Origin: a bacterium
Lineage (GTDB): Bacteria; Bacillota_I; Bacilli_A; RF39; UBA660
Direction of reading: 5' to 3'
NCBI GenBank assembly: GCA_963645945.1
Contig: CAVIUA010000045.1
Coordinates: 1-51,693, forward strand
DNA: 51,693 nt
A model generated the notes under the pieces. That model was not told the DNA's origin. It ran no database searches and was given only the letters and a program-made list of their open reading frames with translations. A program made the translations under genes and the position numbers. This document shows positions 1 through 44,321 of this stretch, piece after piece (position 1 is the first letter of the stretch; the number at the start of each line of letters is the position of its first letter).

Positions 1-4
1 CTTA

Positions 5-26
5 AATTATTTCCCGGGAAATAATT
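5..26. promoter_or_regulatory. Noc-binding-site (NBS) type palindrome, perfect
   Basis: 22-bp perfect palindrome AATTATTTCCCGGGAAATAATT. The core at 8-23, TATTTCCCGGGAAATA, contains the published B. subtilis NBS core ATTTCCCGGGAAAT without mismatch. The GC-rich centre stands out in an AT-rich spacer. Confidence 0.8.
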
Positions 27-191
27 CAGATGAATTATAAAGTAAATTTGCATATGATCAGAAAATTAAAATATATTAATATGGTATTACACTTATAAAT
101 TTTAAAGAACTAAATTTTAATTTTTTGCATTTTTAAACAACAATAATTCATTATTTAATATTAAACATTACTATTAAATTATAAATTTGCT

Positions 192-209
192 ATGTTTCAC
201 GTGAAACAT
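192..209. promoter_or_regulatory. parS (Spo0J/ParB loading site), perfect
   Basis: 18-bp perfect palindrome ATGTTTCACGTGAAACAT. The core at 193-208, TGTTTCACGTGAAACA, equals the Firmicute parS consensus TGTTNCACGTGAAACA. Confidence 0.85.
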
Positions 210-246
210 TAAATAATTAAATAAATGAAATAAATCCAGTTATCAA

Positions 247-268
247 AATCATTTCCTAGAAAATAATT
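247..268. promoter_or_regulatory. Degenerate NBS-like palindrome
   Basis: AATCATTTCCTAGAAAATAATT. The core at 250-265 matches TATTTCCCGGGAAATA at 12 of 16 positions and shares the AAT..ATTTCC / AAATAATT flanks of the perfect copies. It lies 37 nt after the parS at 192-209. Confidence 0.4.
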
Positions 269-371
269 TAAACAATTAGCAATAAAAAATACGTATCGTG
301 TAAAAACTAAAAGACATATAAATTAAGTGCAATTATTAATATAGTAAAAGCTAAATTAATAAATTGATATC

Positions 372-391
372 AATGTTTCACGTGAAACATT
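372..391. promoter_or_regulatory. parS (Spo0J/ParB loading site), perfect
   Basis: 20-bp perfect palindrome AATGTTTCACGTGAAACATT. The core at 374-389 is TGTTTCACGTGAAACA. Confidence 0.85.
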
Positions 392-428
392 ACGATTTTA
401 CTAAACAAATAGGTAAAAATACACATGT

Positions 429-452
429 AAATTATTTCCCGGGAAATAATTT
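429..452. promoter_or_regulatory. Noc-binding-site (NBS) type palindrome, perfect
   Basis: 24-bp perfect palindrome AAATTATTTCCCGGGAAATAATTT. The core at 433-448 is TATTTCCCGGGAAATA. It lies 37 nt after the parS at 372-391. Confidence 0.8.
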
Positions 453-551
453 ATCACTAAAACAAAAATAAATACTGATACATACATAGTAAAAAAAATA
501 TTAAAATAATAAAAATAAATTCTAAATTAATCAAAAAATATTCAAAAACTT

Positions 552-560
552 TTATCCACA
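552..560 (+). promoter_or_regulatory. Isolated perfect DnaA box
   Basis: TTATCCACA, an exact 9-mer consensus, lies in the spacer downstream of gyrA. Confidence 0.45.
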
Positions 561-590: not shown

Positions 591-621
591 GCGCAAAAAA
601 AGAAAGGCACAACGCCTTTCT
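591..621 (-). terminator. Rho-independent terminator of gyrA
   Basis: Hairpin AGAAAGGC-acaac-GCCTTTCT at 601-621. On the minus strand it is followed by a T-run (plus-strand A-run at 595-600). It starts 20 nt past the gyrA stop. Confidence 0.8.
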
Positions 622-640
622 TAAATTTTAATTTTATAAA

Positions 641-3064
641 TTAATTATCTTCTTCATCTTTTGTTACTAAAGCAACAGTAGAAACTAATTCGTTATTCTT
701 TAAATTAATAAGTCTTACACCTTGAGTAGCACGTCTTAAAAGAGAAACTTGATTCAATGGCATTTTCATAATAGTACCATTATCAGTCACAATAACAATA
801 TCATATTTTTCACTTTCAATACGTTTTAAAGCAACCATAGTACCATTCTTTTCAGTAATATTTAATGCTTTAACACCCTTACTACCTCTATGAGTTAATC
901 TATATTCATCAATAACAGTTCTTTTACCATATCCCTTATCAGTAACAATTAAAATTTCTTGTCCAGGATTAACAATTTCCGATCCAATAACATAACTTCC
1001 ATCTAAATCAATACCCTTTACACCAGAGCTGCTTCTACCCATAGGTCTTATTTCACTTTCAACAAAGCGAACCATTCTACCATTATTAGCTCCAATAGCA
1101 ACTTCATCATTTCCACAAGTCTTTCTTACAGAAATTAACTCATCATTTTCCTTTAATACAATAGCAATTTTACCAGATTTTCTAATATTATTAAATTCTG
1201 AAATATCAGTTCTCTTAACTATTCCATTCTTAGTAGCAAACACTAAATATTTAATATCATCAGACGAAGCAGAAATTTCCACAATCGAACTAATGTTCTC
1301 ATTTTTATCTAATTGTAGTAAATTTATTATTGGAAGACCCTTTGATTGCCTTGAAAATTCAGGAATTTCATAACCCTTCATACGATAAACTCTACCCTTA
1401 TTAGAGAAGAACAATATATAGTCATGAGTTTTCATAGAAATTAATTGTTCCACAAAATCTTCTTCATGAGTAGTCATACCATTAACACCTACACCACCAC
1501 GATTTTGAGTACGATAAGTATCAGATCTTAATCTTTTAATATAACCATTGCGAGTTAATGTAATAATTACATCTTCATTAGGTATCAAAGACTCATCCTC
1601 AATATATTCAATAGCAGTCATATCAATATTTGTACGACGCTCATCGCCATATTTTTCCTTAATTTCTAATAATTCATTCTTAATAACCTCTAAAACTCTA
1701 GAATCACTAGCTAAAATGCCACGTAACTCTTCAATTAATTTTAATAAGTCATTTAATTCATTTTCAATTTTTTCGCGTTCTAAACCAGTTAAACGACGTA
1801 ATTTCATTTCTAGAATAGCATTAGCTTGAATTTCACTTAACTTAAAATTATTCATCAAACCAGTTCTAGCTTCATCATCAGATTTAGCAGCCCTAATTAA
1901 TTTAATAACAGCATCAATATTATCAAGTGCTATCTTTAATCCTTCTAAAATATGAACACGTTTTTCAGCAACTTCTAAGTCATATTTAGTTCTTCTAATA
2001 ATTACTTCACGTTGAAAATCAATATATTTAACTATAATATCCTTTAAACCTAAAGTCTTTGGAACACCTTGATCCAGCATTAAGAAAATAATTCCATAAG
2101 TAGTTTGAAACGAAGTATGTTTATATAATTTATTTAAAACAACTTGGGCATTTGCATCTTTCTTTAAAGTTATTGTAATTTTGATACCATTCTTTAAATC
2201 AGAATGATAATCAGCAATACCTTCTATTGTTTTATTATGAACAAGTTCTGCAACCTTATTTTTTAATTCTAAAGTATTAACACCATAAGGAACTTCATCA
2301 ATTATTATACATTGCTTACCATTTACTTCTTCAATTGTAGCCTTACTTCTAATAGTAATAGTACCTCTACCAGTTTCATAAGCCTTTCTGATACCAGCAT
2401 TTCCCAAAATTGTTGCACCAGTAGGAAAATCAGGTCCTTTAATATATTGCATTAACTCATCAAGTTCAATATCATGATTATCAATATAAGCAACACAACC
2501 ATCAATTACCTCTCTTAAATTATGAGGTGGTATATTAGTAGCCATACCAACAGCAATACCAGTAGTACCATTAACTAAAATATTAGGAAAACGAGAAGGC
2601 AAAACATCAGGTTCTCTTTCACTTTCATCAAAGTTTGGACTAAAATTAACCGTATTTTTATTAATATTTCTAAGTAATTCCAAAGAAATCTTTGAAAGAC
2701 GAGACTCGGTATAACGCATTGCTGCTGCACCGTAACCCTCAATATTACCAAAGTTACCATGACCATCAACTAACATATATCTATATGAGAAGTCTTGAGC
2801 CATTCTTACCATTGCTTCATATATACTAGAATCACCATGTGGATGATATTTACCCATAACATCTCCAACAATTCTAGCACTCTTTTTATGAGGTTTATCA
2901 GGAGTATAGCCAGATTCATACATAGAATAAAGAATTCTTCTGTGTACTGGCTTTAAACCATCTCGTAAATCAGGAAGTGCACGAGCAACGATAACACTCA
3001 TAGAATACTCTAAAAAAGAATCTTGAACTTCTTTAACAATATTATTTTTTTCTAATCTATCCAT
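641..3064 (-). CDS. gyrA: DNA gyrase subunit A
   Basis: 807 aa. N-terminus [31 protein letters not shown] and the catalytic-Tyr region AAMRYTE are present. The C-terminal beta-pinwheel repeats are present. It lies immediately downstream of gyrB. Confidence 0.97.
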
Positions 3065-6251: not shown

Positions 6252-6698
6252 TTATTTATTTTTTCGATTTCTCATAATTAAATCTAAGCGAGAGGCTCTA
6301 GATATCTGATTTTCAATTGTTCTATACGAACATGGAACAATTATTTCTTTAAAATTATCAAATACTATCTTTGTATTAGTATTATCTACTTTTTCAAAAC
6401 TCTTAACTCTACTTAAAGATATCCAAGCACAGTCTTGTGCTGAAGGTGAAGTTGTTGGAAAAACAACTATATTATTAGTATCTTCAACAATAATAGGAAC
6501 TTTATACTCCGCTCCTAAAATAGATCTAGCACTATCCTTTCTACCATTATAGGTACTACCAAAATACTTACAAGACTCTTCCATTATTTTAAATGGTGTT
6601 TCATCAATGATATACCTATCATCATCTTCATAAACTAAACTACTTTCTTCTTCATTTGGAACAACAGCTAATGTTCCTTTACTAAATTCATATTTCAT
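6252..6698 (-). CDS. comK: ComK-family competence transcription factor-like protein
   Basis: 148 aa counted from the internal ATG at 6698 with RBS GGGGG 7 nt upstream; the TTG-extended track ORF was rejected. Strong ComK-like blocks: YEFSKGTLAVVP, SCKYFGSTYNGRK, KVPIIVEDTNNIVVFPTTSP..C.WIS, SYRTIENQ. Confidence 0.8.
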   Translation of the reverse strand: MKYEFSKGTLAVVPNEEESSLVYEDDDRYIIDETPFKIMEESCKYFGSTYNGRKDSARSILGAEYKVPIIVEDTNNIVVFPTTSPSAQDCAWISLSRVKSFEKVDNTNTKIVFDNFKEIIVPCSYRTIENQISRASRLDLIMRNRKNK

Positions 6699-6760
6699 CT
6701 TATTTCCCCCTATAGAAAACGAAATTTGTTCGTTTTCATTCAAAATATAACAAATTTTTT

Positions 6761-6777
6761 TGTCGAATTTTATCGAA
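6761..6777 (+). promoter_or_regulatory. Tandem Spo0A-box-like direct repeat upstream of comK
   Basis: TGTCGAAtttTATCGAA. The first unit is a perfect 0A box (TGTCGAA) and the second has one mismatch, with a 10-bp period. It lies 63-79 nt upstream of the comK ATG and overlaps the -35 area of a minus-strand TGTTATATT extended -10 (plus-strand 6744-6752). Confidence 0.45.
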
Positions 6778-6855
6778 ATTTGTAGAACAAACAAAAAAAA
6801 TAGAAGAATTATATCTTCTATTTATATTATTAGCAATAAAATAAAATATCCTAGA

Positions 6856-8114: not shown

Positions 8115-9482
8115 TTACACAACACCTATATCCTTTTTCAATTTTTCTATTATATTTGCCAGGTCTTTATTGATTTTTATTTCGTTTTCTATTTTTTCCA
8201 CGGAATGCATAACTGTCGAATGATCTTTTCCCCCAAATTCTGTTCCTATCTTAGGAAAAGACTCACTTGTCATATTCCTACAGAGGTACATAGCAATTTG
8301 CCTTGGAAAAGATATATTTGAACTCCTCTTTTTACTTCTAATATCTTCAACAGAAATCTGAAAATATTCAGAAACTATTTTTTGAATTCTTTGAATGTCA
8401 TTCTTTTCACTCATTCCTTTACTAATAAAGTCTTTTAAAGCTTCAATAGCTAAATCTAAAGTAATTTCAACGCCACCCATTATTGTAGAATAAGCAACAA
8501 TTCTAGTTATGGAACCTTCCAATTGTCTCACGTCTGTACCAATATTTGATGCTATATATTCAATAACTTCTTCAGAAATTTCTTTTTCAAAGTTACCAGC
8601 AATTATTTTTTTCTTTAAAATTTGCATTCGTAAAGAAAAGTCAGGTGGAAAAATATTAACTGTTAATCCCCAACAAAATCTTGTCCTTAACCTATCTTCC
8701 AACAATTTTAAGTCATCTGGAGAACGATCTGAAGAAATTATTATTTGTTTACTATCATTATATAATGAATTAAAAGTATGGAAAAATTCTTGTTGTGTCT
8801 TAGTAGCACCGCCTAAAAATTGAATATCATCAATTATAAGAACATCAATATTCCTATATTTATTCTTAAAAAAATCTACATAATTAAAATTAGTTCCTGA
8901 ATCATCCTTCTTATTTAATTTGATAAAGTCCTGTGTAAATTGATCAGAAGTAACATATAAAACCTTTTTGTTACTATTTTCTAATATATAATTACCAATA
9001 GCATGCATCAAATGAGTTTTACCTAGTCCACTATTTCCATATATAAATAATGGATTGTACATTTTACCAGGATTTTCAGCAACTGACAATGCCGCAGCAT
9101 GTGCAAACTTGTTACTATTCCCTACTATAAAGTTTTCAAAAGTATATTTAGCATTAAGATTTGAATGTACTTTATTATTAGGTATACCCTCTAATACCTC
9201 TTCTATTTCAATCTTTTTAGGTAGTACCTCTTCTATTTCTTCTTTTAAAATTAATATTAATTCAAAATTAGTACCTGTAATATCATTTAAAGTTTTTGTA
9301 ATTAAATCAGCATAATTATCCATCAAATGCTTCTTATGTATTGGCATTGGAACAATTATATATGCTTTACCGTTTTCTAATCTATGTAACTGCGTATCAG
9401 CAAACCAAGTGGTAAAAGATAAAGAAGTTAGTTCATCTTTTATTTGACCTAAGAACTTGGTCCATAAAATATCGACATTCAT
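8115..9482 (-). CDS. dnaA: Chromosomal replication initiator DnaA
   Basis: 455 aa from the ATG at 9482 (MNVDILWTKFL..., RBS GGGGAGATGG). AAA+ Walker A GNSGLGKTHL is present, as are LIIDDIQFL and the C-terminal DNA-binding block FGGKDHSTVMH. The 68 extra N-terminal codons in the track ORF run through the DnaA-box cluster and were rejected. Confidence 0.95.
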   Translation of the reverse strand: MNVDILWTKFLGQIKDELTSLSFTTWFADTQLHRLENGKAYIIVPMPIHKKHLMDNYADLITKTLNDITGTNFELILILKEEIEEVLPKKIEIEEVLEGIPNNKVHSNLNAKYTFENFIVGNSNKFAHAAALSVAENPGKMYNPLFIYGNSGLGKTHLMHAIGNYILENSNKKVLYVTSDQFTQDFIKLNKKDDSGTNFNYVDFFKNKYRNIDVLIIDDIQFLGGATKTQQEFFHTFNSLYNDSKQIIISSDRSPDDLKLLEDRLRTRFCWGLTVNIFPPDFSLRMQILKKKIIAGNFEKEISEEVIEYIASNIGTDVRQLEGSITRIVAYSTIMGGVEITLDLAIEALKDFISKGMSEKNDIQRIQKIVSEYFQISVEDIRSKKRSSNISFPRQIAMYLCRNMTSESFPKIGTEFGGKDHSTVMHSVEKIENEIKINKDLANIIEKLKKDIGVV

Positions 9483-9729
9483 TCTACCATCTCCCCACAA
9501 GATAAATAAACTACGATTAGTGTACATTAAATTGTGAAAAAAATAAACCATTTTATTGCAAAATTTTTTATCAACACGATTTCCACATTTTTTTACACAA
9601 CATAAACCATTAATAAATAAGAATAAAATTAACTTATCCACAGTTTCCACAGATTTTAATTCCACATGGTAAAAAAACATTTCCACAAACTTGTGGATAT
9701 TGTTTAAAAATAAAAAAGTACGATTTTAA
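9483..9729. other. oriC part 1: DnaA-box cluster upstream of dnaA
   Basis: Perfect TTATCCACA at 9634-9642. Near-consensus boxes: ATTTCCACA 9579-9587, TTTTACACA 9591-9599, GTTTCCACA 9643-9651, ATTTCCACA 9679-9687, and TGTGGATAT 9692-9700 (reverse complement ATATCCACA). Confidence 0.8.
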
Positions 9730-16073: not shown

Positions 16074-17384
16074 ATGAATACAGAAACAAAAGACGAAGTT
16101 GTTTATTTATATTTAGATGACATAATTCCAAATCGTTTTCAACCAAGAGAAGTATTTGACGAAAAAGCACTAAGAGAATTAGCAGTTTCAATTAAAGAAC
16201 ATGGTGTAATTCAGCCAATAATCGTACGTCGTGTAAACGGAAAATATGAAATAATTGCTGGAGAACGTCGATATAAAGCATCAGCATTAGCTGGTATGAC
16301 AAAAATCCCTGCTATTATAAGAGATTTAGACGATAAAGAAAGTTCAAAAGTAGCTTTACTTGAAAACCTACAAAGAAAAAATCTTAATCCAATAGAGGAA
16401 GCTAGAACATATCAAAAAATTCTTGAAATAGATCAAATGACTCAAGATGAATTAGCCAAAACAATGGGTAAGAGTCAGTCTGCAGTAGCAAACAAATTAA
16501 GATTATTATCATTATCAGATGAAGTTCAAGATTCATTATTGAAAGAACAAATTTCCGAAAGACATGCTAGAGCCTTATTAAATATTTCAGATGCTAAGAA
16601 GCAAAAAGAAATGTTAAAAAAAGTAATAAGTAATAAAATGACAGTAAGAACATTGGAAGAGGAGATATCAAAAATGAACGGAACGCCAGCAAATGAAAAT
16701 ATTCAGTCTGTAAGAACAACATTAACAAATAATGCTACACCTATAATGCCAACAACAGATATGCCAGAAGATATGTCAAATTATGGAAAAGTAACAATAG
16801 CTCCACCAATAGAAAACGGTCCAGCTAGTAAAGAACAAAAATTTATCAACTATGGTGAAATTGATAAAGAAGCCGTAGAAGAACCTAAAAACTCATATTA
16901 TAATCAAGTTGCAGTTCAACCAGTTGATGTAAATACAATAAAAGAACAAGCCATTGATATAACACCAGGAAATGATACACCATCAGCTGACTTAGATAAT
17001 TTATTAAATATTCAAGCACCAGCAAGTAGCAAATATCCTCATGTAAAAGCTCGTCCAGCACAAGATTATATGACACCAGCTGAAGCAATTGTTAAAGGAG
17101 ATGCCGAAGCTCCTGATGAGTCAATTAAAGATTACTTCCAAATGCCTAATATCAAAGCAACAGACTTTTCACAAGGAGTAGCAGCAGTGCCTGCTCAACA
17201 GTCAATTTCAAGTATCATGAGTAATCCAAACCCAGTTCAAAATACTGGTGCTTATACAACAGAAGAGATTATGGCTAAAATTAGAGACGTAGTAAAAGAC
17301 ATAGAAAGTCATGGTAACAAAATTACTTTTGATGAAATGAATTTTGCAACAGCTTATCAAGTAATCATAAAAGTAGATAAATAA
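16074..17384 (+). CDS. noc: Noc-type ParB-family paralogue with a long low-complexity insertion
   Basis: 436 aa. ParB N-domain (IIPNRFQPR, GVIQPIIVR, IIAGERRYKA, the GERR arginine patch). The HTH region GKSQSAVANKLRLLSLS...SERHARAL has Q, K and R at positions reported as Noc-specific, against R, T/H and G in ParB. It is in the position between rsmG and soj, as for B. subtilis noc. Matching NBS palindromes occur in this window. Confidence 0.75.
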   Translation: MNTETKDEVVYLYLDDIIPNRFQPREVFDEKALRELAVSIKEHGVIQPIIVRRVNGKYEIIAGERRYKASALAGMTKIPAIIRDLDDKESSKVALLENLQRKNLNPIEEARTYQKILEIDQMTQDELAKTMGKSQSAVANKLRLLSLSDEVQDSLLKEQISERHARALLNISDAKKQKEMLKKVISNKMTVRTLEEEISKMNGTPANENIQSVRTTLTNNATPIMPTTDMPEDMSNYGKVTIAPPIENGPASKEQKFINYGEIDKEAVEEPKNSYYNQVAVQPVDVNTIKEQAIDITPGNDTPSADLDNLLNIQAPASSKYPHVKARPAQDYMTPAEAIVKGDAEAPDESIKDYFQMPNIKATDFSQGVAAVPAQQSISSIMSNPNPVQNTGAYTTEEIMAKIRDVVKDIESHGNKITFDEMNFATAYQVIIKVDK

Positions 17385-17478: not shown

Positions 17479-18267
17479 ATGGGAAAGGTTATATCATTAG
17501 TAAATCAAAAAGGTGGAGTAGGAAAAACAACGACAAGTATCAATCTTTCTGCATCACTAGCAGTATTAGGGAAAAATGTTTTATTAATAGATTTAGATCC
17601 TCAAGGTAATACAACTACTGGTGTAGGAATAAATAAGGGAGAAATTGAACGTAGTATATATGATGTTTTAATAGACGAATGTACAATAACAGAAGCTATT
17701 ATCAAAACAAAATATAAAAACTTATATGTTTTACCTGCAACAATAAATTTAGCCGGAATTGATATTGAATTAGTAGAAAAAAGTAAACAAGAAAATGGTT
17801 TTCAAAAAGGTGAGCAATTAAAAAGACATATAGAAGGAATTAAAGATAGTTTTGATTATATAATAATAGACTGTCCACCTTCTTTAGGGGTTATAACAAC
17901 AAATGCATTAACAGCTTCTAACTCGGTTATAATACCAGTACAATGTGAATTCTTTGCTCTAGAAGGAATAACACAGCTGTTAAAAACTATTATGTTAGCA
18001 CAAAAAACATTAAATCCAGACTTAGTAATCGAAGGTGTTTTACTAACTATGTTAGATTCTAGAACAAATTTAGGTTTTGAAGTAGTAGAAGATATCAGAA
18101 AATTCTTTAAAGAAAAAGTATACAACACAATAATTCCAAGATTAGTTAGATTAACAGAGGCTCCATCACACGGAGAGCCTATAATAGTTTATGATCCAAA
18201 AAGTAGAGGATCAGAAGCTTATATAAATTTAGCAAAGGAAGTGATTGCGAGAAATGGAAACAACTAA
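17479..18267 (+). CDS. soj: ParA/Soj chromosome partitioning ATPase
   Basis: 262 aa. It has the deviant Walker A NQKGGVGKTTT and also contains DLDPQGN and IIDCPPSLG. Confidence 0.93.
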   Translation: MGKVISLVNQKGGVGKTTTSINLSASLAVLGKNVLLIDLDPQGNTTTGVGINKGEIERSIYDVLIDECTITEAIIKTKYKNLYVLPATINLAGIDIELVEKSKQENGFQKGEQLKRHIEGIKDSFDYIIIDCPPSLGVITTNALTASNSVIIPVQCEFFALEGITQLLKTIMLAQKTLNPDLVIEGVLLTMLDSRTNLGFEVVEDIRKFFKEKVYNTIIPRLVRLTEAPSHGEPIIVYDPKSRGSEAYINLAKEVIARNGNN

Positions 18268-19156
18268 TAACAATAAAAGAAGAGCTTTAGGTAGAGGATT
18301 AGAAGAATTATTTTATAATGAGCCAATTGATTACAACAAAGTAGAAGAAAAAATATTAACAGAAACATCAAAAGATGAAATTAAAATGGTAAAAATAGAT
18401 GAATTAAGAAGTAATCCATACCAACCAAGAAAAGTATTTGATGAAACAGCACTTCAAGAATTAGCAGCCTCAATCAAGGAACACGGTGTATTTCAACCTA
18501 TAATAATAAAAAAAAGTATTAAAGGATACGAAATAATAGCCGGAGAAAGAAGAGTAAAGGCCTCAAAACTAGCAGGTTTAGACGAAATACCAGCAATAAT
18601 TCGTGATTTTTCAGATGATGAAATGATGGAAATTGCTCTACTTGAAAACTTACAAAGAGAAAATTTAAATGCTATAGAAGAAGCAAATGCTTACAAAAAA
18701 TTACTAGAAACATTACAATTAACTCAAGAACAACTATCAAATAGACTAGGTAAAAGTAGAAGTCATATCACAAATATGATAGGTCTATTAAATTTACCAG
18801 AAGAAGTACAAAAACTACTTAGTAGTAAAGAAATAAGTGCTGGACATGCAAGAATAATAAGCAAACTAGAAAATGAAGAGCAACAAATAAGTCTTGCTAA
18901 AAAAGTAGTAGATGAAGGACTAAGTGTTAGACAACTAGAAGATATTACTCATTCTAATGAAAAGTTCTTAAGAGTACATGAAATTAAAAGAAGAACAAAA
19001 GAGACAAGTTCAGAATATGTATATTTAGAAGAAGAACTATGTGAAAAATTAGGTACAAAAGTAAAAATTAAAACAAATAAAATAGAAATCAGTTTTGTTA
19101 ACGGAAATGATCTAAACAGGCTATTAGAAATAATGAATTTAGAATCAAGGAGGTAA
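18254..19156 (+). CDS. spo0J: ParB/Spo0J chromosome partitioning protein
   Basis: Start METTNNNKRRALGRGLEELF, the ParA-interacting motif. It contains GERR, and the HTH region GKSRSHITNMIGLLNLP...SAGHARII has ParB-type R and G specificity residues. It overlaps the soj stop by 14 nt. Confidence 0.9.
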   Translation: METTNNNKRRALGRGLEELFYNEPIDYNKVEEKILTETSKDEIKMVKIDELRSNPYQPRKVFDETALQELAASIKEHGVFQPIIIKKSIKGYEIIAGERRVKASKLAGLDEIPAIIRDFSDDEMMEIALLENLQRENLNAIEEANAYKKLLETLQLTQEQLSNRLGKSRSHITNMIGLLNLPEEVQKLLSSKEISAGHARIISKLENEEQQISLAKKVVDEGLSVRQLEDITHSNEKFLRVHEIKRRTKETSSEYVYLEEELCEKLGTKVKIKTNKIEISFVNGNDLNRLLEIMNLESRR

Positions 19157-44261: not shown

Positions 44262-44321
44262 TATACTAATAGCGCATTTAATTACTATGACAAACGTTGT
44301 CATGGCGGAAGGAGAGATCGT

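What the first reader, a model, noticed from the sequence alone, without database searches (positions are those of the whole stretch)
1..460. Interleaved perfect parS and Noc-binding-site palindromes in the ORF-free spacer downstream of gyrA
Seen in the sequence:
- TGTTTCACGTGAAACA occurs twice (193-208 and 374-389).
- TATTTCCCGGGAAATA occurs twice (8-23 and 433-448), each inside a longer perfect palindrome of 18-24 bp.
- A decayed NBS copy (12 of 16) lies at 250-265.
- The order is NBS - parS - NBS* - parS - NBS. Each parS is followed after exactly 37 nt by an NBS-type palindrome (209 to 247, and 391 to 429). The 37-nt spacers themselves are unrelated in sequence.
- My manual scan found no other CCCGGG-centred or parS-like site in the remaining 51 kb.

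Established knowledge: the first 16-mer is the Spo0J/ParB parS consensus defined in B. subtilis. The second contains the 14-bp Noc-binding site ATTTCCCGGGAAAT. ParB and Noc are paralogous CTP-dependent clamps that load at their sites and then spread.

Inference: this spacer, about 9 kb from oriC, may be a dedicated dual loading platform where two paralogous clamps are nucleated side by side at fixed phasing. I am not aware of a described interdigitated parS/NBS array. It raises questions about mutual roadblocking, co-spreading, or coupling of segregation to nucleoid occlusion.
Basis: partly seen in the sequence, partly recalled or inferred. Interest (0 to 1): 0.78.

Follow-up and report, generated by a model that had tools for sequence, protein, structure and literature searches.

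The report
Mixed parS/Noc-site centromere array near oriC
Next to its replication origin, this uncultured gut bacterium and more than 100 related species carry a conserved array that alternates the loading sites of two sister DNA-clamp proteins (ParB and a Noc-type paralogue without a membrane anchor), an arrangement I could not find described in the literature.

Summary
The palindromes are real and sit at the stated coordinates. The "exactly 37 nt" offset is wrong: centre-to-centre distances are 57 and 59 bp.

The window starts inside the feature. Complete contigs of the same species hold five NBS-parS pairs (57-59 bp apart) in the 1.4-kb gyrA-ffs-tadA spacer, about 8-9 kb from oriC. A genome scan found close NBS-parS pairs in at least 119 species genomes, nearly all AT-rich uncultured Bacilli. 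Almost all lie in the gyrA-tadA-dnaX spacers, strongly alternating and sometimes in tandem arrays of up to 23 sites.

The window encodes a canonical ParB (LGRGL motif, R/G specificity residues). It also encodes a Noc orthologue with NBS-type residues (Q,K,S,R) and intact CTP motifs. This orthologue lacks the N-terminal membrane helix and has a roughly 190-aa disordered linker found only in this clade. The clade's 24-bp NBS occurs almost only in the oriC region.

Best reading: a two-paralogue composite centromere, not classical nucleoid occlusion. Binding and function are inferred. The helical phasing of the spacing is suggestive only. I found no prior description.

The parts
5..26 (.). NBS copy 1. 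The core TATTTCCCGGGAAATA lies at 8-23, inside a 22-bp perfect palindrome. It belongs to pair 3 of the full array; its parS partner lies beyond the window start.
   Evidence: homologous to L001 13158-13173
192..209 (.). parS copy 1. The core TGTTTCACGTGAAACA lies at 193-208, inside an 18-bp palindrome. It is the partner of the decayed NBS at 250-265.
   Evidence: homologous to L001 12863-12878
250..265 (.). Decayed NBS (CATTTCCTAGAAAATA, 12 of 16 bases), 57 bp centre-to-centre from parS 1. The same position is perfect or one mismatch off in other strains of the species.
372..391 (.). parS copy 2. The core lies at 374-389, inside the 20-bp palindrome AATGTTTCACGTGAAACATT, which is the clade consensus.
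428..453 (.). NBS copy 3. The core lies at 433-448, inside a 26-bp palindrome that contains the clade's 24-bp consensus AAAWTATTTCCCGGGAAATAWTTT. It is 59 bp centre-to-centre from parS 2.
595..622 (-). Intrinsic terminator of gyrA. It forms the gyrA-side boundary of the array-bearing spacer.
   Evidence: sequence; homologous hairpin at L001 12443-12466
641..3064 (-). gyrA, the flanking gene. The array always lies downstream of it in relatives.
8115..9686 (-). dnaA. DnaA boxes flank it (8023, 8086, 9634, 9692) and the GC-skew turning point lies here, which marks oriC.
16074..17384 (+). Noc-type ParB paralogue (436 aa), the predicted NBS-binding CTP clamp.
- It has no N-terminal membrane helix and no ParA motif.
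- Its specificity residues are Q135, K141, S146 and R163.
- GERR and ENLQR are intact.
- It has a disordered acidic linker at 204-395 with conserved islands, and a folded C-terminal domain at 396-436.
17479..18267 (+). Soj/ParA ATPase.
18254..19156 (+). Canonical ParB/Spo0J (300 aa from the ATG), the predicted parS-binding clamp.
- It carries the N-terminal LGRGL ParA-activating motif.
- Its residues at the specificity positions are R, M, N and G.
- It has a ParB_C dimerisation domain.

Best explanation
Positions 1-460 are the gyrA-proximal half of a composite chromosomal centromere about 1 kb long. In complete contigs of the same species the array has five NBS-parS pairs. It lies between the gyrA terminator and ffs-tadA-dnaX, about 8-9 kb from oriC.

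Proposed mechanism:
- Inferred: the parS palindromes load the canonical ParB encoded at 18254-19156. This ParB carries the ParA-activating LGRGL peptide.
- Inferred: the 24-bp NBS palindromes load the paralogous Noc-type protein encoded at 16074-17384.
- Shown: both proteins keep the CTP-binding motifs.
- Inferred: each therefore closes into a CTP clamp at its own site and slides into neighbouring DNA. Interleaving the two site types would then build one mixed ParB/Noc-type nucleoprotein complex over the origin region.

How this differs from Bacillus and Staphylococcus Noc (all three points are shown):
- The protein has no N-terminal membrane-targeting helix.
- It has a clade-specific, acidic, disordered linker of about 190 aa with conserved short motifs.
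- Its sites are essentially restricted to the oriC region.

I therefore read it as a second centromere protein, not a chromosome-wide nucleoid-occlusion factor. Its most likely role is speculative. It may bring partner(s) to the centromere through its linker motifs, which would be a division of labour with ParB. It may also tune ParB loading or spreading.
For: 1. The sites exist and are non-random.
2. Same-species contigs show five NBS-then-parS pairs at 59, 57, 58, 59 and 58 bp, with unrelated spacer sequences and no tandem-repeat homology.
3. Window versus L001: site columns are 71/76 identical. Non-site spacer is 335/499 (67%) identical with 121 gapped columns. gyrA is 95.9% identical at the nucleotide level.
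About 115 of these lie in the gyrA-tadA-dnaX spacers, with gyrA identity to the window of 44-90%.
5. Alternation: 528 of 699 adjacent site pairs are mixed, against 372 +/- 12 in label shuffles.
6. Some species amplified an NBS+parS unit in tandem: 125 bp x 10.7 copies and 83 bp x 13.2 copies.
7. The Noc-type protein carries Q, K, S, R at the four specificity positions. Jalal 2020 showed that Q173 and R201 plus one lysine at 179 or 184 give NBS specificity. ParB has R, M, N, G.
8. Similarity is reciprocal: the Noc-type protein is closest to solved Noc structures and ParB is closest to Spo0J. The gene order rsmG-noc-soj-parB matches B. subtilis.
9. GERR and ENLQR are invariant in both proteins.
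10. The N-terminus is short and conserved. Query residues 4-7 align to residues 23-27 of G. thermoleovorans Noc, roughly where the N-delta-26 construct that lacks helices alpha1 and alpha2 begins.
11. The clade's 24-bp NBS in metagenomes: 102 of 120 loci carry oriC-region genes. Among loci of at least 5 kb, 61 of 70 do, and 3 more lie in the nearby yaaT-mfd block.
12. A perfect 24-bp NBS is kept inside dnaX, encoded as (I/N)ISREI(I/F), within an otherwise unconserved part of the protein in 19 species loci.
Against: - No binding, loading or localisation data exist. The organism is uncultured.
- The whole-genome NBS distribution for this species could not be read. Only about 62 kb around oriC is available.
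- The metagenome test used the extended 24-mer, so core-only NBS elsewhere are not excluded.
- Position 184 is Ser or Ala, not Lys.
- The Noc-type protein scores below NCBIfam's Noc cut-off (284 versus 315 bits).
- Helical phasing of the spacing was significant in the genome set (Rayleigh Z 18-28). It survived 80% clustering (Z about 15). It was not significant in the smaller, independently ascertained metagenome subset (Z 1.7). Like-to-like distances show no phase.
- In a sister species (L005) the pair distances are irregular: 127, 164, 92 and 39 bp.
- The role of the second clamp is conjecture.
Confidence: 0.6

Rival explanations
1. Classical nucleoid occlusion. The Noc orthologue tethers NBS-bearing DNA to the membrane and blocks division over the origin region, as in B. 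subtilis and S. aureus. On this reading the array is only the densest part of an origin-biased NBS distribution that happens to lie next to parS.
For: - The protein is orthologous to Noc and the gene order is syntenic.
- The NBS core is identical to the Bacillus/Staphylococcus consensus.
- NBS in those species are also origin-biased.
- A few isolated NBS exist outside the array.
Against: - There is no N-terminal amphipathic helix in any of 11 aligned clade members, nor in further metagenomic examples. A Noc variant without this helix is impaired in occlusion (citing Adams 2015).
- The linker is acidic (25 D+E against 13 K+R), so it is an unlikely membrane binder.
- About 90% of NBS loci lie within the oriC region, not across half or two-thirds of the chromosome.
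- Tight, alternating pairing with parS is not explained by this reading.
Confidence: 0.12
2. Antagonist or insulator model. NBS-bound or clamped Noc-type protein mainly acts as a roadblock or competitor. It would confine or meter ParB clamps released from the neighbouring parS, or the reverse. The array would then regulate partition-complex size rather than assemble a cooperative two-protein complex.
For: - Strict alternation and short distances (24-70 bp) place each loader directly in the sliding path of the other.
- From general knowledge of the field, ParB clamps are blocked by DNA-bound proteins. The title of PMC9242446, listed, concerns ParB bypassing roadblocks.
Against: - It does not explain the conserved 190-aa linker motifs.
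- It does not explain the separate NBS in dnaX and elsewhere around oriC that have no parS nearby.
- Sequence alone cannot separate it from the best explanation.
Confidence: 0.15
3. The CCCGGG-centred palindrome is recognised by something other than the Noc-type protein. Candidates are another HTH factor or a restriction-modification enzyme. Alternatively it acts structurally, for example as a cruciform or terminator, and its match to NBS is coincidental.
For: - CCCGGG is a common restriction site.
- The palindromes score as terminator-like hairpins in a crude scan.
- A ComK-like gene sits at oriC.
Against: - The whole 16-bp NBS is matched exactly, plus symmetric flanks out to 24 bp.
- The genome encodes a protein with the matching specificity residues.
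- The site is preserved inside the dnaX coding sequence.
- CCCGGG is not avoided or enriched elsewhere. Two copies are observed against about 0.4 expected, and both are in NBS.
Confidence: 0.05
4. Non-functional satellite. A parS-containing unit that happened to include an NBS-like sequence was amplified by tandem duplication, and the NBS hitch-hikes.
For: True tandem arrays exist in some species, and contigs often break at the arrays.
Against: - In the window species the five units share nothing but the two palindromes.
- The sites are conserved while the spacer diverges to 67% identity.
- NBS also occurs alone at conserved positions such as dnaX.
- The arrangement spans species whose gyrA is only 44-90% identical to the window's.
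Confidence: 0.02

Closest known systems
Spo0J(ParB)/parS/Soj chromosomal partition system of Bacillus subtilis and other bacteria
   Same: - The 16-bp parS consensus is identical.
- The sites are clustered near the origin.
- ParB has the ParB_N, HTH and ParB_C domains, the LGRGL ParA motif and the CTP motifs.
- soj and parB are adjacent.
   Different: - All parS seen in about 62 kb around oriC are packed into one intergenic array of about 1 kb.
- Each parS is paired with a site for a second ParB-family protein.
- There is no parS inside parB itself.
Noc/NBS nucleoid occlusion system of B. subtilis and S. aureus (Wu 2009; Adams 2015; Pang 2017; Jalal 2020, 2021)
   Same: - The NBS core is identical.
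- The gene is orthologous and lies between rsmG and soj.
- Q, K and R specificity residues are present.
- GERR and ENLQR CTP motifs are intact.
   Different: - There is no N-terminal membrane-targeting helix.
- The linker is about 190 aa, disordered and clade-restricted, with only 63 representative clusters in 1.84 billion proteins.
- The NBS is extended to a 24-bp palindrome.
- NBS are confined to the oriC region and interleaved with parS, instead of 41-70 sites spread over half or more of the chromosome.
Iterated centromeres and multi-parS clusters, for example F-plasmid sopC (12 x 43-bp repeats, from my own knowledge) and the 22 parS near the Myxococcus origin (abstract of PMC3899335)
   Same: Many loading sites are packed into a short stretch. 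In some relatives they form true tandem repeats.
   Different: Those arrays serve one ParB. Here two orthogonal palindromes for two paralogues alternate. In the window species the array is not a sequence repeat.
Engineered orthogonal ParB-parS / Noc-NBS labelling pairs (mParSpot, PMC11109969, listed)
   Same: They use the same two protein-site pairs as independent, non-cross-reacting systems.
   Different: They are artificial, and the sites are placed at separate loci. No natural interdigitated array is described there or in any paper I found.

Membership tests
Chromosomal ParABS centromere (parS) | 16-bp palindrome matching TGTTNCACGTGAAACA | tested here: met
   Two perfect copies lie at 193-208 and 374-389. 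The full array in the same species has five.
Chromosomal ParABS centromere (parS) | Origin-proximal location | tested here: met
   The array lies about 7.5-9.5 kb from dnaA, its DnaA boxes and the GC-skew turning point.
Chromosomal ParABS centromere (parS) | Cognate ParB with parS-type specificity residues, a ParA-activating N-terminal motif and a ParA partner | tested here: met
   ParB at 18254-19156 has R..G at positions 173/201, the LGRGL motif and a ParB_C domain. Soj is encoded at 17479-18267.
Chromosomal ParABS centromere (parS) | Specific binding and CTP-dependent spreading of ParB from the sites | not testable with these tools
   This needs biochemistry or ChIP.
Noc/NBS nucleoid occlusion system | NBS palindrome ATTTCCCGGGAAAT | tested here: met
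   Perfect 16-mers lie at 8-23 and 433-448. The clade consensus extends to 24 bp.
Noc/NBS nucleoid occlusion system | ParB paralogue orthologous to Noc, judged by gene position and best similarity | tested here: met
   The gene lies in the order rsmG-noc-soj-parB. Its best solved relatives are Noc (E 3.5e-61), ahead of ParB.
Noc/NBS nucleoid occlusion system | Passes the curated NCBIfam Noc model (TIGR04285) cut-off | tested here: not met
   It scores 284.1 bits against a cut-off of 315.
Noc/NBS nucleoid occlusion system | NBS specificity residues Q173, K179 and/or K184, R201 (Caulobacter numbering) | tested here: met
   The residues are Q135, K141, S146 and R163. One lysine suffices according to Jalal 2020.
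Noc/NBS nucleoid occlusion system | N-terminal amphipathic membrane-targeting helix | tested here: not met
   The protein starts about where the N-delta-26 construct of G. thermoleovorans Noc starts. The ORF cannot be extended upstream. The short N-terminus is conserved in 11 homologues.
Noc/NBS nucleoid occlusion system | Tens of NBS scattered over the origin-proximal half to two-thirds of the chromosome | tested here: not met
   This was tested at clade level. 102 of 120 metagenomic loci with the 24-bp NBS carry oriC-region genes, and 64 of 70 loci of at least 5 kb do. The window has no NBS in its other 51 kb. Caveats: only the extended motif was scanned, and no closed genome was read.
Noc/NBS nucleoid occlusion system | CTP-binding motifs (GERR arginine, ENLQR asparagine) | tested here: met
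   G63-R66 and E97-R101 are invariant. The equivalents R89 and N121 are needed for CTP binding in B. subtilis Noc.
Tandem iterated plasmid-type centromere (sopC-like) | Head-to-tail sequence repeats, each carrying one site for a single ParB | tested here: not met
   There is no tandem-repeat homology in the window species. Relatives with true repeats carry two different palindromes per unit.
Dispersed repeat / MITE | Many copies at unrelated, non-origin loci or on mobile elements | tested here: not met
   The sites are confined to oriC-region spacers and genes. There were zero hits in 2.9 million viral contigs.

The most novel reading that the evidence does not exclude
In this order-level clade of reduced-genome gut Bacilli, the bacterial centromere is built by two paralogous CTP clamps. 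They are co-loaded from paired sites whose spacing is constrained and possibly helically phased. The Noc orthologue is an origin-restricted, membrane-independent second 'kinetochore' subunit. Its disordered linker motifs would recruit partners that ParB handles alone in other bacteria. The arrangement is either a relic of the state just after the ParB/Noc duplication or a secondary re-purposing of Noc.
Probability: 0.35. Interest if true: 0.9.

Novelty: new variant of a known kind. Interest (0 to 1): 0.8.

Why it matters
ParB and Noc are the two textbook CTP-dependent DNA clamps. They are thought to work at separate places for separate jobs: segregation at parS near the origin, and division control at NBS scattered over the chromosome.

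A natural, widely conserved array that interleaves their loading sites is unexpected. So is a Noc orthologue that has lost the feature needed for nucleoid occlusion.

If the reading holds, it would matter in three ways:
- It offers a natural system for asking how two orthogonal sliding clamps share one DNA track. They might block each other, co-spread or cooperate.
- It shows what a Noc-type protein does when it cannot bind membranes.
- It bears on how the ParB-to-Noc functional switch evolved.

It also defines the centromere of a large, uncultured and abundant group of gut bacteria. It explains why their assemblies tend to break at this locus.

Tried and rejected
- An exact-sequence look-up of the window's GyrA found nothing. 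I reached relatives through a homology search instead.
- Tandem-repeat origin of the array in the window species: rejected, because the units share no homology.
- RNA gene in the spacer: only SRP RNA, downstream of the array. Nothing was found within 1-640.
- Promoter enrichment in the spacer: none (14 found against 17.9 expected).
- 'All parS on one DNA face, all NBS on the other': not supported, because like-to-like distances show no helical phase.
- Replication of the 10.5-bp spacing periodicity in the independently ascertained metagenome subset failed (Z 1.7, n = 75). I therefore report the phasing only as suggestive.
- Absence of indels inside the two window pairs relative to L001 (0 of 84 columns against 121 of 537). 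This is not meaningful statistically. Gapped columns cluster into about 12 events by my count, so about 2 would be expected in 84 columns.
- Mobile-element or viral association: none.
- MITE or dispersed repeat: rejected.
- ComK-box reading of the NBS flanks: the spacing does not fit (my own inspection).
- Six literature searches found no description of mixed parS/NBS arrays or of a helix-less Noc. The library is incomplete, so this is absence of evidence only.
- A regular expression meant to read specificity residues in metagenomic Noc-type ORFs returned nothing and was not pursued.
Full report
**1. Observation**

- TGTTTCACGTGAAACA lies at 193-208 and 374-389. TATTTCCCGGGAAATA lies at 8-23 and 433-448.
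- Nothing else in 51.7 kb comes within 2 mismatches of either motif.
- CCCGGG occurs only at the two NBS copies.
- A 12-of-16 NBS relic lies at 250-265.
- The "exactly 37 nt" offset is an arithmetic slip. The 16-mers are 41 and 43 nt apart, and the centres are 57 and 59 bp apart.

**2. Context**

- The window is the oriC region of an AT-rich (28% GC) uncultured bacterium. Close relatives are labelled as Bacilli, 'Tenericutes' or Mycoplasmatota MAGs.
- The gene order is gyrA, gyrB, recF, a ComK-like gene, dnaN and dnaA on the minus strand. On the plus strand come rpmH, rnpA, yidC, jag, mnmE, mnmG, rsmG, a Noc-type gene, soj and parB.
- DnaA boxes flank dnaA, and the cumulative GC skew turns at 8-10 kb. 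The palindromes are therefore about 8-9 kb from oriC.

**3. The window shows only part of the feature**

- Contigs of the same species (GyrA 99% identical) carry a 1.4-kb gene-free spacer. It contains, in order, the gyrA terminator, the array, an SRP-RNA gene, then tadA and dnaX.
- The spacer holds five NBS-then-parS pairs with start-to-start offsets of 59, 57, 58, 59 and 58 bp.
- The five units share only the two extended palindromes. Their spacers are unrelated, and Tandem Repeats Finder sees no repeat.
- Equal lengths with randomised sequence argue for selection on the pair distance in this species. This is an inference.
- Between the window and L001 the site columns are 71/76 identical. 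The rest of the spacer is 67% identical with many indels. gyrA is 95.9% identical at the nucleotide level.
- Individual NBS copies are polymorphic between strains, mostly through changes in the CCCGGG core.
- The window starts at a contig end inside the array. Many assemblies break at this locus.

**4. Conservation across the clade**

- All but one locus are AT-rich uncultured gut or rumen Bacilli-type MAGs. They include Candidatus Onthousia and three closed chromosomes of 1.3-1.5 Mb.
- In about 115 loci the sites lie in the gyrA-tadA or tadA-dnaX spacers. GyrA identity to the window is 44-90%.
- Complete arrays hold 2-23 sites (median 4 parS and 2 NBS). parS and NBS counts are correlated (r = 0.60).
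- 528 of 699 neighbouring site pairs are mixed, against 372 +/- 12 in shuffles.
- Some species have amplified an NBS+parS unit as a true tandem repeat: 125 bp x 10.7 copies and 83 bp x 13.2 copies.
- The clade consensus sites are AATGTTTCACGTGAAACATT and the 24-bp AAAWTATTTCCCGGGAAATAWTTT.
- The pair pattern is absent from 2.9 million viral contigs.

**5. Spacing**

- Centre-to-centre distances of adjacent mixed pairs peak near 24, 36, 47-48, 57-58 and 68-70 bp.
- The Rayleigh maximum falls at 10.5-10.75 bp. Z is 28 pooled and 18-21 when each locus counts once. The phase corresponds to about n + 0.45 helical turns.
- The signal survives clustering of loci at 80% nucleotide identity (Z about 15).
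- It is not significant in the smaller metagenome subset, which was ascertained without any distance condition (Z 1.7).
- Like-to-like distances show no phase.
- I treat helical phasing as a lead, not a result.

**6. The two proteins**

ParB (18254-19156):
- It has the ParB_N, HTH and ParB_C domains and the LGRGL ParA-activating motif.
- It carries R, M, N, G at the four specificity positions.
- Its closest solved relative is B. subtilis Spo0J.

The Noc-type protein (16074-17384):
- It is closest to solved Noc structures and sits at the Noc position in the gene order.
- It carries Q135, K141, S146 and R163. Jalal 2020 showed that Q173 and R201 plus one lysine at 179 or 184 give NBS specificity.
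- GERR and ENLQR are intact. Their equivalents are needed for CTP binding in B. subtilis Noc.
- It begins only 3-6 residues before the point where G. thermoleovorans Noc residues 23-27 align. It therefore lacks the membrane-targeting helix alpha1 and also helix alpha2. The ORF cannot be extended upstream, and the short N-terminus is conserved in 11 homologues.
- Residues 204-395 are predicted disordered and are acidic. They contain conserved islands (KFINYGEID, ADLDNLLNI, TPAEAIVK, DYF). A folded C-terminal domain follows.
- This C-terminal half has only 63 representative relatives among 1.84 billion protein clusters.
- The protein scores below NCBIfam's Noc cut-off (284 against 315 bits).

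**7. Where NBS sites lie**

- In 619 kb of array-flanking sequence from about 115 species there are 18 perfect NBS inside dnaX, 5 other isolated NBS and 1 isolated parS.
- The dnaX site is a full 24-bp palindrome encoded as (I/N)ISREI(I/F). It lies in an otherwise unconserved stretch of the protein, so the DNA site rather than the peptide is conserved.
- A metagenome scan with the 24-mer returned 120 AT-rich loci. 33 hold arrays and 16 hold only the dnaX site.
- 102 of the 120 carry at least one of 15 oriC-region genes. Among loci of at least 5 kb, 61 of 70 do, and 3 more lie in the nearby yaaT-rsmI-pth-mfd block.
- For genomes of about 1.5 Mb this is an enrichment of more than 30-fold.
- In this clade NBS are therefore an origin-region feature. 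In B. subtilis and S. aureus, by contrast, 41-70 sites are spread over half or more of the chromosome.

**8. Interpretation**

- The best-supported reading is a composite centromere. parS loads ParB and NBS loads the Noc-type clamp. Both slide into the same origin-proximal DNA and form a mixed complex.
- Shown: the sites, their conservation, alternation and location, and the protein features.
- Inferred: which protein binds which site, and CTP-dependent clamping.
- Speculative: the role of the second clamp, either as a partner-recruiting adaptor through its linker motifs or as a modulator of ParB loading.
- Classical nucleoid occlusion is unlikely, because the membrane helix is missing and the sites are origin-restricted.
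- A roadblock or insulator role cannot be separated from the favoured reading by sequence alone.

**9. Comparison with known systems and novelty**

- The parts belong to the ParABS and Noc/NBS families.
- As a Noc system, this one fails two defining features: the membrane helix and the scattered site distribution.
- Six full-text searches found no description of interleaved parS/NBS arrays or of a helix-less, origin-restricted Noc. Recent surveys still describe Noc as membrane-binding with scattered sites.
- I classify the feature as a new variant of a known kind.

**10. Limits**

- There are no experimental data.
- No closed genome could be read in full.
- Species in the sets are phylogenetically related, which inflates the statistics.
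- The metagenome test covers only the extended NBS motif.

Noticed in passing
L093 6891-7265 (JAVBRL010000212.1, a GC-rich Synergistaceae MAG): Two close NBS/parS pairs lie next to the 3' end of a parB-like gene in a different phylum. One pair has a parS-like site followed 39 nt later by a perfect NBS. The other has a one-mismatch NBS followed by GTTTCACGTGAAAC. Close pairing is therefore not strictly limited to the AT-rich Bacilli clade, although Noc is said to be confined to Firmicutes.
   Followed up: partly
L001 15389-15404 (inside dnaX), and the same position in 18 other species loci: A perfect 24-bp NBS palindrome is embedded in the dnaX coding sequence, encoded as (I/N)ISREI(I/F) within an otherwise unconserved linker at about residue 350. 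It was present in 16 of 76 species whose dnaX was fully covered.
   Followed up: yes
Metagenome loci L127/L136/L152 (ybaB), L155/L231 (recR), L139 (recF), L207 (mnmG), and L146/L197/L237/L240 (yaaT-rsmI-pth-mfd block): Further recurrent single NBS sites lie inside or between other oriC-region genes in other species. Several fall at the same codon position in different contigs.
   Followed up: partly
window 6252-6794 (-): A ComK-family gene (Pfam E 1e-42) sits between dnaN and recF. It is conserved at that position in relatives (L001, L005).
   Followed up: partly
window 552-560: A perfect DnaA box (TTATCCACA) lies between the array and the gyrA terminator. In the other strains (L001-L004) it reads TTTTCCACA.
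   Followed up: partly
L001 13736-13834: An SRP RNA gene (Rfam RF00169, 53 bits) lies between the array and tadA. It is the only RNA family hit in the spacer.
   Followed up: yes
window position 1; also L004/L101 and many loci at contig ends (L011, L018, L020, L024, L025, L035, L038, L058, L088, L091): Assemblies frequently break inside the array. The GTDB representative of the window's species (GCA_963656615.1) has the array split over two contigs. This explains why the window starts at an NBS.
   Followed up: partly
window 16074-17384, residues 256-264, 305-313, 334-341 and 353-358: Short conserved islands (KFINYGEID, ADLDNLLNI, TPAEAIVK, DYF) lie in an otherwise variable disordered linker. 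ADLDNLL loosely resembles the GL(D/E)ALL core of ParB's ParA-binding peptide but lacks the basic residue.
   Followed up: no
L170 8447-9244 (34% GC metagenome contig): A 266-aa Noc/ParB-type protein has the N-terminus MKIPFFNQENQ..., which looks like a possible membrane helix. It is encoded next to an extended NBS, so it may be a neighbouring lineage that keeps a canonical Noc.
   Followed up: no
window 250-265; L001 12806 and 13387; L002 12803 and 13356; L003 12621; L004 4765: Individual NBS copies are polymorphic between strains of one species. Most changes are single substitutions in the CCCGGG core (CCTGGG, CCCAGG, CCCGGA), which fits AT-biased or CpG decay under weak selection per site in a redundant array.
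   Followed up: partly
window 44285-44314: An L31-Firmicutes ribosomal-protein leader (Rfam RF03156) scores just above its gathering threshold.
   Followed up: no
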